This document shows positions 54,001 through 57,000 of a stretch of 64,000 bases of DNA, in pieces. Positions within the stretch are counted from its first letter, which is position 1, and each line of letters opens with the position of its first letter. The position numbers were made by a program. Origin of the DNA: Ginglymostoma cirratum (lineage: Eukaryota). The stretch lies in the NCBI GenBank assembly GCA_024137785.1, contig JAHRHZ010000267.1, positions 14,149,454 to 14,213,453 of the forward strand. Direction: 5' to 3'.

Positions 54001-57000
54001 GTGGAGCACTCTTTCTTGGTTAGTCTTTTTATTATTCACTATCACGCGTGACTGGTTATGGCAAGGCTTAAATCAGGTCTTTTGGTTGTGAGATCATCGG
54101 AGTCCTGCTTACAGCATGCAGCTTCCACTGTTATAGTCCTGTGTTGTCACTTCACCAAGTTAGCATCTTATTTTTCAGAACGCCTGGCGCTGCTCACGCA
54201 CGCTCCTACACTCTCATCCAATCAGGGTTATCCACTGGCTTACTGATAATGATGCTATGAGGAATTTGCCAGACATGACGATGCAGATTTTTAGTTCAAA
54301 ACAATTCACAGCACTGAATTTATCCTATTTAACACAGTAGTGGCATACACAATATGAATACAGGAGTTTGTCTCCACAGGGACTATGTGGCCACCATTCA
54401 TACCAATGCTACCACAAGCAGACGTGCTTTTGACAAGTAAATTGGTAGGTGAAGTCAACTAAATTTTCCCTACATTATGATAGTTATATCTGTTTGGTAG
54501 CTGTCTTTCTACATAACTTCACATCGAAAAGAAGTTTAGCATGCCTTATTTCCATTTGTCACTACATCCTCATCATTCTGAAAACTCCAGAGCAGCTTTT
54601 ATTCATGTGTTGCCTCTACCTTGAAATGAGCCAGGATTAGTCCATGTACATATTTTAATGTCATTCCCCGTACTTACTTCATGAGATTTTGGCAGTATCT
54701 CAGGATTTGAAATGATGGAAAGCAGTAGATAGTAAGCGCTCCTTTAAAGGACTTATGGAAAAGTAACAGGCATGTGAGTCCCAGTGCAGTATTTTTTTCA
54801 TTTAGAGGCCAAAGCAAGAACAAAAGGAATAAAGAGCAATTTGTCTAAGAAGGAGCAACCCACAGAATTCTTAACACACTGATCCTCGTTCTCAACTCAG
54901 CCTCTCCTGTGACCTCCCATGTAGTGCCTGTACCAAATGGTCAAACCACATTATCCAGAAGCTCATAATTTAAATAAAATTCAGGGTCTTGATAAGCCAA
55001 ATGCACTGTTTATCCTCACAATCACAGACTTGTTGAATTAGCAATAAATATTTTGAGCTATTATCAAAAAGTATTTTATGCTTTATAATCTTTTCCGAGC
55101 AGTACAGTTGTGAAGTATTTTGGCTTTAGGCAAGTGTATTCGTAATTTGTCAATATAATACATCTCTGAGATCTTTCTAAGGGATTTTAAAGTATTAAAC
55201 GGTAACCAAGAGTGACTATTTTTGCATATTAATGTAATATCCAGGAGCAGTAGCTCTATGAATATTCTTGACAGCTGCTAAATAAGCAAAATATTTGCAT
55301 CATTCAGCTAATTATTCTGCTTGGACTTACCGTCAAGCGAATCAGAAGAAATGTTTGCTGAAACTTTTACTTCTTTTCAGGGCTGTATTGCATGCTCTTG
55401 CATCAAAAATACTTCTTTTCTAGTGTAATTTTGTTTTAATTAGATATGCCCTATGACTAACTGATAGTTACAGGATTATTCTAATACGATACAAACTGGC
55501 TTCACCTAGCACTTCCTAATGAGTCAACATCACGCTTTCGTTAGACATAACAAGAACTGCAGATGCTGGACTCAGAGACAACACAGTGTGGAGCTGGAGG
55601 TACACAGCAGGTCAGGCAGCATCTGAGGAGCAGGAAAGCTGACACTTCGGGCCGAGACCCTGCTTCAGAATTCATTAGGAAGTGCTGGGTGAAGTCAATT
55701 TTTATTGTATTAGAATAATCCCGTAACTATCAGTTAGCCGTAGGGCATGTCTAATTTAAAGAAAAAACAAACATTTACACTGGAATAAAAGTATCTTAGA
55801 TGCAAGAATGTGCAATACAGCCCCGAAAAGAGGTAAAAGTTTTCTGAAGAAAGGTCCTGGCTCGAAACGTCAACTTTCCTGTTCCTCTGCTGCTGCGTGA
55901 CCTGCTGTGTTCCTCCATCATATTTTGTTTACCAGTTTTTAAAGTAATGAATCTCCAGTTTATGATAGGTTAGGTATTTCTGTTATGGAAAAGCAAGAAT
56001 GCATTTAGAGAGCGTCGAGATTTTGTTTACAAGAATGCAGCATCTTTGTGTGATCTAAATGATAAGGCAAAAAACCTTGCATTTTGCTTTTCTGCTCAAT
56101 AACCTTAAAAGTACAACACACTGGGCTGGATTTTGCCTCCCCATGAGGTGTGTTTTAGTGGGAGAAATGCAAAATATTATCTTCCCAACCACCTCTAAAT
56201 TTACCCACCATAATGTGGCCTGCCCACCAAAGTTTAGTGACTAATTACAGGACAGTTGAGCTTATTACCAAACTAATTTCACTCTAAAAAGCCCCTTTGT
56301 TTTTTTTTCAGCAATTTAAAAGTTATTTTTCGACAGTTGATCGCTGGCTTTTGCTTCCTTTTTAATATTATGGGGGTAATTTCATTTTCCTGGTGGAGAT
56401 CCTTGCCTGGATAGAACAAGTGCTAACGCGAAATAACATGTTTGGTTTAATTTCAACATGATCATAAAATGGCATGCAGCCAAAGCTCCAATCCACTATT
56501 GCCCATATTAGTTAGCAAGGTCAGAACATGCCTTCAATAATGTGCACATAGTGCACAGGGAGCTGTACAATAAGTCACTACTGAGTATTTTGTCCCTCAA
56601 CCCCAGGTAAAACAGCTACTCTATCTTGTTTCCTTGACATACCATGCCAAGGGATGCAATAAGCGCTGAATTATCTTAATGGTATTCATTGTTATTGAAT
56701 ATCCATGACAGAAATGCCATGTCAATCAGTATTCCCATCTCAGTGAATCTCTGGGGCCCATTCCAAACAGAAAACAGTTTGTTCTGTGCAGTCAACCAAT
56801 TCATCTGGCCACTGGGGAGGAAGACTTAATAAAACATCACAGGAAGTATTAAAGCCTGCTCTCCCCTAAATTCTTTAACAGTTTGCTGCTGCGGAAAAGG
56901 GATCATTTTTACCTTAATGGAATACTGACTGATAAAAGTTTTGAATTTTTTTTTGTGCAACAGAACCTATTCCAGAAGTAAATAGAAGTCTTATAATTGA

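What the first reader, a model, noticed from the sequence alone, without database searches (positions are those of the whole stretch)
55361..55929. Ribozyme-bounded element that captured an inverted copy of its own flanking host DNA
Seen: the layout is F (55361-55522), TSD, reverse arm (55543-55670), reverse complement of F (55672-55842), forward arm (55842-55915), TSD. The captured 170 bp starts 5 nt from the TSD edge, and both junctions fall at the ttCTGAAG hammerhead boundary. Inference: after copying the RNA, the nascent cDNA switched to the adjacent target strand, then back onto its own cDNA. This is a frozen snapshot of the fold-back mechanism and a route for duplicating and inverting host sequence, giving two interleaved, mutually competing hairpins in the pre-mRNA.
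Basis: partly seen in the sequence, partly recalled or inferred. Interest (0 to 1): 0.8.

Follow-up and report, generated by a model that had tools for sequence, protein, structure and literature searches.

The report
Shark retroelement pair enclosing inverted flank
Inside an intron of a shark protocadherin-19 gene, two head-to-head copies of a short Penelope-type retroelement enclose a 171-base backwards copy of the DNA lying just upstream: a real but old and probably functionless scar of a messy insertion or repair event.

Summary
F (55361-55522) recurs as its reverse complement at 55672-55842 (162 aligned bases, 13% different, E 2e-47). It sits exactly between a full-length reverse arm (55543-55670) and a truncated forward arm (55842-~55917) of a ~130-nt repeat. 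Both junctions fall at the repeat's 5' end. A 15-nt target-site duplication candidate (10 of 15, P~0.02) brackets the whole unit and neither arm alone.

The window is shark DNA: its exon is 99% identical to Stegostoma tigrinum protocadherin-19. The finding lies in the last intron, on the sense strand.

The repeat begins with a minimal hammerhead-like motif (CUGANGA, a stem, GAAAC-GUC), but no Rfam hammerhead model matches. [quoted passage not shown] Only this locus, 1 of 5 assessable pairs, holds captured flank. F has no other copy in the window.

Arms and F copies have diverged equally (Fisher p=0.43), so capture happened at or near insertion. Later host repair at the palindrome centre is not excluded. 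No shark genome was searchable, so the empty-site and dispersed-repeat tests remain open.

The parts
55361..55522 (+). F: original host flank. It runs on into unique upstream intron DNA.
   Evidence: Its only other match in the window is its inverted copy.
55523..55527 (.). 5-nt gap (GTCAA) between the end of the F homology and the TSD candidate.
   Evidence: alignment.
55528..55542 (.). Left copy of the candidate target-site duplication.
   Evidence: 10 of 15 matches to 55916-55930, P~0.02.
55543..55670 (-). Full-length reverse arm of the ~130-nt PLE-type short element. Its 3' end faces left. Its hammerhead-like core is mutated.
   Evidence: nhmmer profile positions 1-130, E 6e-40 (this copy was one of three used to build the profile). 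Sequence.
55671..55671 (.). Single unassigned base at the left junction.
55672..55842 (-). rcF: inverted copy of F (171 nt including a 9-nt indel), filling the centre of the head-to-head pair.
   Evidence: blastn 83% over 171 columns, E 2e-47. 13.0% substitutions over 162 columns.
55842..55917 (+). Forward arm, profile positions 1-78, 3'-truncated. It keeps CTGAAGA, CGAAAC and GTC.
   Evidence: nhmmer E 3e-17. 82.9% identical to the reverse arm.
55916..55930 (.). Right copy of the candidate TSD. Alternatively a diverged continuation of the forward arm.

Best explanation
A short non-autonomous element, mobilised by a Penelope-like retroelement, inserted once into the last intron of protocadherin-19. 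Like many members of its family, it inserted as a head-to-head pair.

Inferred steps:
- One target strand primed a full-length cDNA, which became the reverse arm.
- The forward arm arose in one of two ways: a second cDNA primed from the other target strand at an internal RNA position, or a snap-back of the first cDNA.
- While the two 3' ends were being bridged, the free end of the first cDNA, stopped at the RNA 5' end, primed DNA synthesis on its own upstream target strand. Synthesis began next to the staggered cut, 5 nt from the TSD.
- It copied 171 nt of host DNA backwards, then switched through a 1-3 nt T/TTC overlap onto the other arm.

Shown: the anatomy, the single-unit TSD candidate, the family habit of head-to-head insertion, and the equal age of the two repeat pairs.

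Inferred: the polymerase (element RT or a host enzyme), the order of the switches, and that capture happened during integration rather than shortly after.

The structure is an old neutral scar. Its only predictable effect is a long, imperfect intronic RNA hairpin.
For: - Anatomy and junctions.
- A TSD candidate exists only for the whole unit (P~0.02), not for either arm alone (P 0.55-0.87).
- Family habit: 6 loci in the window are pairs, and all 6 have the (-) arm left and the (+) arm right, so the 5' ends face each other. None is tail-to-tail. Pairs B and D have TSD candidates around the whole pair (10 of 13, P=0.0025; 12 of 15, P=0.002).
- Equal divergence: F/rcF 21 of 162 against arms 13 of 76, Fisher p=0.43. 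Outside CpG columns, 17 of 154 against 10 of 68, p=0.50.
- F has no other copy in the window, and none of the other family loci has F beside it.
- A PLE relic lies at 57922-60015. [quoted passage not shown] It is itself an 889-nt inverted pair, 92.7% identical.
- Literature, passages read: PLE insertions often carry an adjacent inverted copy and the mechanism is called undefined (PMC8557442). A PLE protein cleaves and extends both target strands and starts reverse transcription internally (PMC11167929). Paired min-hammerheads on opposite strands 100-700 bp apart are reported (PMC4209133). In L1, template-switching RT, templated insertions and cDNA self-annealing at insertion sites are reported (PMC11702581).
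Against: - It is a single locus. Only 1 of 5 assessable pairs in the window shows captured flank; pair D's centre is masked.
- The divergence test has low power, so a capture some time after insertion would look the same.
- The TSD match is modest (10 of 15). The same bases can be read as a diverged continuation of the forward arm (25 of 2000 shuffles).
- The left junction has 0-1 nt of microhomology and the right junction 1-3 nt, which discriminates nothing.
- Homology of the short element to the neighbouring PLE's tail is only marginal (15 of 1000 shuffles).
- No empty site or intermediate state could be examined.
Confidence: 0.5

Rival explanations
1. Repair after insertion. The element first inserted as an ordinary head-to-head pair with a few-nt centre, like the pair at 11626-11807. 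The near-perfect palindrome later broke at its centre. After resection, the left 3' end snapped back on its own upstream strand. A host polymerase, such as one acting in microhomology-mediated end joining, copied 171 nt of F. The end then rejoined the right arm.
For: - Both junctions lie exactly at the palindrome centre, where a hairpin or cruciform break would fall.
- There is a 1-3 nt overlap at the right junction.
- F/rcF is nominally less diverged than the arms (13.0% against 17.1%).
- Self-annealing of resected ends and templated insertions are described at L1-induced breaks (PMC11702581, passages read).
Against: - The divergence difference is not significant (p=0.43 and 0.50).
- 171 nt is long for a templated end-joining insert (from general knowledge, not tested here).
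- None of the other 4 assessable pairs shows centre revision with flank sequence.
Confidence: 0.3
2. One cDNA strand copies the RNA to its 5' end, jumps to the adjacent target strand, and then jumps back onto its own cDNA to make the forward arm.
For: - It gives the observed order and junctions.
- The plain pair at 11705-11807 has a 7-nt centre, and its forward arm lacks the first 3 nt, as a self-primed hairpin would give.
Against: - The last jump must land on the former cDNA end. By then that point is internal, sitting at the top of a 171-bp stem far from the growing 3' end.
- The neighbouring PLE pair has a 322-nt asymmetric centre. That is hard to derive from self-copying if its left arm really carries the longer 3' tail. 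The longer tail rests on a marginal alignment and on my recall.
Confidence: 0.12
3. No capture occurred. Either F/rcF is a pre-existing inverted repeat or two copies of an unrelated dispersed repeat, with two independent element insertions beside them, or the layout is an assembly artefact.
For: The window alone cannot detect a repeat of low or moderate copy number. No shark genome was searchable.
Against: - Neither arm has its own TSD (P 0.55-0.87).
- Both ends of rcF coincide to the base with the two element 5' termini. F ends 5 nt from the TSD candidate.
- F has 0 further copies in 64 kb.
- The copies differ by 13-17%, so they are not a duplicated assembly segment.
Confidence: 0.06

Closest known systems
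Penelope-like element insertions with an adjacent inverted copy, and their non-autonomous pLTR-derived relatives (non-LTR retrozymes, min-hammerhead repeats)
   Same: - Hammerhead-like core at the start of the unit.
- Head-to-head inverted arrangement bracketed by one TSD candidate.
- Hammerhead motifs on opposite strands 100-700 bp apart, as noted in PMC4209133.
- An RT plus GIY-YIG-like PLE relic sits in the same window.
   Different: - The centre holds host DNA copied backwards from the adjacent flank. I did not find this described for PLEs in my searches or in the passages I read.
- No tandem copies of the short element occur in the window, so the tandem hallmark of retrozymes is absent here.
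LINE-1 twin priming and non-canonical L1 insertions (template-switching RT, templated insertions, cDNA self-annealing; PMC11702581)
   Same: - Both target strands can prime.
- One TSD surrounds an internally inverted insert.
- Extra templated segments sit at the internal junction.
   Different: - L1 twin priming joins adjacent, essentially non-overlapping RNA segments. Here both arms cover the same 5' 76 nt.
- The enzyme family differs (GIY-YIG PLE, not APE-type L1), and there is no poly(A).
Snap-back templated insertions and palindrome centre revision by host repair
   Same: - An inverted copy of sequence a few tens to hundreds of nt from the junction, on the same strand.
- Little microhomology at the junctions.
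   Different: - 171 nt is long for such inserts (general knowledge).
- The junctions coincide with a retroelement's 5' termini rather than with random break points.

Membership tests
Hammerhead ribozyme (type I / min-HHR of PLEs) | Conserved core boxes: CUGANGA, helix II, GAAA, then a GUH cleavage triplet. | tested here: met
   By inspection.
- The forward arm has CTGAAGA, CGAAAC and GTC. The best family copy (11626-11755, minus strand) has CTGATGA, a 4-bp stem, CGAAAT and GTC.
- The reverse arm of this locus is mutated (CTGAAGC, CGAAGT), so at most one arm keeps the core.
Hammerhead ribozyme (type I / min-HHR of PLEs) | Match to a curated covariance model. | tested here: not met
   There was no hammerhead family at gathering score in the whole window. 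None appeared at E<=10 in 55200-56100, 11560-11860 or 59400-60100.
Hammerhead ribozyme (type I / min-HHR of PLEs) | Helix I: sequence upstream of CUGANGA pairing with sequence after the cleavage site. | tested here: not met
   The unit starts 2 nt before CUGANGA. By inspection, the sequences upstream of the listed copies show no complement to the bases after GTC. PMC4209133 leaves loop 1 and the closing stem out of its min-HHR descriptor, so this does not exclude a min-HHR.
Hammerhead ribozyme (type I / min-HHR of PLEs) | Self-cleavage. | not testable with these tools
   This needs transcription and cleavage assays of monomer and dimer constructs.
PLE-mobilised non-autonomous element | Complex inverted (head-to-head) insertions bracketed by one TSD. 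| tested here: met
   6 of 6 paired loci are head-to-head. TSD candidates surround whole pairs at 3 loci.
PLE-mobilised non-autonomous element | An autonomous PLE (RT plus GIY-YIG endonuclease) in the same genome. | tested here: met
   Window 58835-59498 matches residues 422-642 of a 643-aa shark protein at 63-74% identity. [quoted passage not shown] Pfam's GIY-YIG model itself did not match.
PLE-mobilised non-autonomous element | Sequence homology of the short element to a PLE pLTR or tail. | tested here: inconclusive
   The tail of the left PLE copy aligns to the element with the same order of blocks, but 15 of 1000 shuffles score as high. nhmmer found no hit there at E<=10.
Non-LTR retrozyme | Tandem head-to-tail arrays of the unit. 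| tested here: not met
   No head-to-tail pair of the family was found in the window. Only 64 kb was examined.
L1-type twin priming | Inverted 5' segment and forward 3' segment that are adjacent, essentially non-overlapping parts of one RNA. | tested here: not met
   Both arms cover profile positions 1-76.
Integration-coupled capture of target DNA | Captured copy and element arms are of equal age. | tested here: inconclusive
   13.0% against 17.1% divergence, Fisher p=0.43. This is compatible with equal age, but the test has low power.
Integration-coupled capture of target DNA | An empty site with a single F in related species, and F single-copy genome-wide. | not testable with these tools

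The most novel reading that the evidence does not exclude
This locus is a natural footprint of the unresolved second half of Penelope-like element integration. After reaching the RNA 5' end, the element's polymerase complex stays beside the staggered cut. It can use the displaced upstream target strand as a DNA template before pairing with the second arm. If so, such elements would duplicate and invert host DNA at a measurable rate, and would seed long intronic inverted repeats in shark genomes.
Probability: 0.3. Interest if true: 0.55.

Novelty: new variant of a known kind. Interest (0 to 1): 0.35.

Why it matters
Inverted and tandem insertions of Penelope-like elements are well documented, but their mechanism is described as still undefined (PMC8557442, passages read). 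A pair whose centre holds an inverted copy of the adjacent target places a free 3' end beside the upstream target strand at the moment the two arms were joined. That constrains models of second-strand synthesis.

If such cases recur genome-wide, they would show that these elements duplicate and invert host DNA and create long intronic RNA hairpins. As a single old locus with no sign of function, it is an informative curiosity rather than a discovery.

Tried and rejected
- Rfam at gathering score on the whole window and at E<=10 on three sub-regions gave no hammerhead. The pair at 11.7 kb gave only sub-threshold microRNA-like hairpin matches.
- Pfam on six window ORFs gave nothing usable. The PLE identity had to come from a homology search and from motifs read by eye.
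- Each arm was tested as an independent insertion with its own TSD, and this was rejected.
- A full-length forward arm ending near 55970, with a TSD beyond it, was tested. No TSD was found there (7 of 15, P=0.80), but the weak 3'-half similarity keeps the arm's end uncertain.
- The five other paired loci and two solo loci were searched for flank-derived inverted matches. None was found.
- The PLE tail was searched for elsewhere in the window. There was no further copy, so whether the extra ~40 nt on the left PLE arm belong to the element could not be shown.
- Literature searches for shark hammerhead or retrozyme repeats, for flank inversion at TPRT insertions and for shark PLE surveys found no description of this structure. 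The listings were read only as titles and abstract starts, except PMC6155905, where passages were read.

Full report
**Where this is.** The window is shark DNA. A 230-codon open frame at 60132-60824 matches protocadherin-19 of Stegostoma tigrinum at 99% identity, and other sharks at 82-91%. A tblastn of that reference protein against the window places three exons on the + strand: 23576-23632, 29264-29434 and 60228-60821, the last residues of the protein. Exons were located one at a time. The finding at 55361-55929 therefore lies in the last intron, on the transcribed strand. The window is not human.

**The observation.**
- With gaps allowed, F (55361-55522) aligns to the reverse complement of 55672-55842. 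There are 162 columns, 21 substitutions and one 9-nt indel, with blastn E 2e-47.
- The two element arms align over 76 nt with 13 substitutions, E 1e-17.
- Homology between F and its copy stops exactly where the element arms begin. On the left, the reverse arm ends with the complement of TTCTGAAG at 55670, one unassigned base follows, and rcF starts at 55672.
- On the right, rcF runs into TTCTGAAG at 55842 with a 1-3 nt T/TTC overlap.
- The copies differ by 13-17%, so this is not an assembly duplication.

**What the element is.**
- A profile was built from three full copies in the window. It finds 30 hits at E<=10, of which 15 have E<1e-3. The three building copies match by construction.
- The unit is about 130 nt. 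It starts with TTCTGATGA, a 4-bp stem with a tetraloop, then CGAAA(C/T)GTC. These are the conserved boxes of a hammerhead core in the minimal form described for Penelope-like elements, without helix III (PMC4209133, passages read).
- No Rfam hammerhead model matches, either at gathering score or at E<=10.
- The unit begins 2 nt before the CUGANGA box, not at the predicted cleavage site, and I saw no helix I partner.
- At this locus the forward arm keeps the three boxes and the reverse arm has lost two. 'Ribozyme-bounded' is therefore true only at motif level.

**Family habit.**
- Six loci in the window hold the element as a pair: 11626-11807, 17735-17962, 31577-31787, 35308-35508, 47771-48311 and this one. 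In all six the minus-strand arm is on the left and the plus-strand arm on the right, so the 5' ends face each other. None is tail-to-tail.
- For two of these loci the second arm is weak in the profile search (E 0.0076 and 5.0). A self-comparison confirms the palindromes there.
- In the pairs at 11.7 kb and 47.8 kb, as here, one arm reaches the element's 3' end and the other is cut short, at profile positions 51, 97 and 78.
- TSD candidates bracket the whole pair: 10 of 13 (P=0.0025), 12 of 15 (P=0.002) and, here, 10 of 15 (P=0.017-0.020).
- Treated as solo insertions, neither arm of this locus has a TSD (P 0.55-0.87).
- The centre of the 47.8-kb pair is a 400-N run, which I left alone.
- Of the five pairs whose centre can be read, only this one contains flank-derived sequence.

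**Link to Penelope-like elements.**
- Two kb downstream, 57922-58805 and 59128-60015 form an 889-nt inverted repeat at 92.7% identity, with a 322-nt asymmetric centre.
- Its open frames match shark proteins of up to 643 aa. These have a Pfam RT domain. [quoted passage not shown] The DKG motif is named as PLE-diagnostic in PMC8557442.
- The plus copy covers residues 422-642 and the minus copy residues 504-642. This is the classic PLE 'adjacent inverted 5'-truncated copy' (PMC8557442).
- Its tail carries its own CUGANGA-stem-GAAA module, followed by blocks in the same order as in the short element. The alignment is only marginal (15 of 1000 shuffles).
- I therefore file the short element as a probable PLE-derived non-autonomous element. 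This is in line with a 2026 preprint arguing that animal non-LTR retrozymes derive from PLE pLTRs (10.64898/2026.07.22.740005; abstract and results section read). No tandem arrays occur in this window, so I do not call it a retrozyme.

**Which copy is the original.** F continues into unique intron DNA on its left and is separated from the element only by 20 nt on its right. rcF is walled in by element termini on both sides. F has no third copy in the window, and none of the other family loci has F beside it. So F is host DNA and rcF is the copy. The window has little power against a repeat of low copy number. Even so, that reading would need both ends of rcF to coincide by chance with two element termini.

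**Timing.** F/rcF differ at 21 of 162 sites and the arms at 13 of 76 (Fisher p=0.43). Outside CpG columns the figures are 17 of 154 and 10 of 68 (p=0.50). The two duplications are of indistinguishable age. This fits one event, but a somewhat later capture cannot be excluded.

**Mechanism.**
- The top strand reads: upstream target, TSD, antisense element from 3' end to 5' end, reverse complement of the upstream target starting 5 nt from the TSD edge, then sense element from position 1.
- The simplest chain uses free 3' ends only. A cDNA primed at the left nick runs off the RNA 5' end. Its 3' end folds back onto its own upstream strand at the single-strand/double-strand boundary left by the staggered cut. 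It copies 171 nt, then pairs through a short T/TTC overlap with the 3' end of a second cDNA, primed internally from the other target strand.
- Priming from both strands and internal initiation have been shown in vitro for a lizard PLE (PMC11167929, passages read).
It needs a landing on a point that is no longer an end.
- A third route is host repair of a broken palindrome centre by snap-back synthesis, either at or after integration. L1 work describes comparable self-annealing, template-switching and templated insertions (PMC11702581, passages read).
- The sequence alone does not separate these routes. I give integration-coupled capture about 0.5 and later repair about 0.3.

**Consequence.** As RNA, 55341-55940 folds at -265.8 kcal/mol (z = -18.9 against 100 shuffles), with F paired to rcF and the arm pairing excluded. 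Nothing suggests a selected function.

**Limits.** No eukaryotic genome collection could be searched. The empty-site test, the genome-wide copy number of F and the genome-wide survey of pair centres are all undone. Supplements of the cited papers were not seen, and they may contain PLE insertion catalogues that bear on novelty. My statement that this structure is not described rests on four full-text searches and on the passages read.

Noticed in passing
window 57922-60015: This is a Penelope-like element relic arranged as an 889-nt inverted pair (92.7% identical) with a 322-nt asymmetric centre. The plus copy covers residues 422-642 of a shark RT/GIY-YIG-like protein and the minus copy residues 504-642. 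It ends 213 nt before the last protocadherin-19 exon (60228). The left arm seems to carry about 40 extra tail bases (57885-57921), like the one-sided PLE 'tail'. That these bases belong to the element rests on a marginal alignment and on recall.
   Followed up: partly
window 47771-48311: This head-to-head pair of the same family has a 400-N run (47858-48257) at its centre. The 53 readable bases on each side are 100% complementary, and a 12-of-15 TSD candidate brackets the pair. It may be a young insertion or a palindrome that broke the assembly. The N run was left untouched.
   Followed up: partly
window 34788-35516: This is a cluster of a diverged subfamily. A minus-strand 3' piece abuts a plus-strand 5' piece (34788-34917). 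After 376 nt comes a head-to-head pair (35294-35516). The first unit has an unusual order of segments that was not explained.
   Followed up: no
window 11705-11807: This plain head-to-head pair has a 7-nt centre and folds as a long hairpin. It scores against several microRNA precursor models, far below their gathering scores (best 45 bits against a threshold of 100). Such pairs could be a source of hairpin RNAs.
   Followed up: no
window 23576-23632, 29264-29434, 60228-60821: These are three protocadherin-19 exons on the + strand, 99-100% identical to the Stegostoma tigrinum protein. The last intron is about 30.8 kb and holds most of the repeats described here.
   Followed up: yes
window 11900-12184, 26675-26968, 38963-39280, 41175-41456: These open frames look like C-terminal or RT fragments of LINE-type retrotransposons. 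I judged this by eye and recall only. Pfam found nothing for 41175-41456, and the others were not searched.
   Followed up: no
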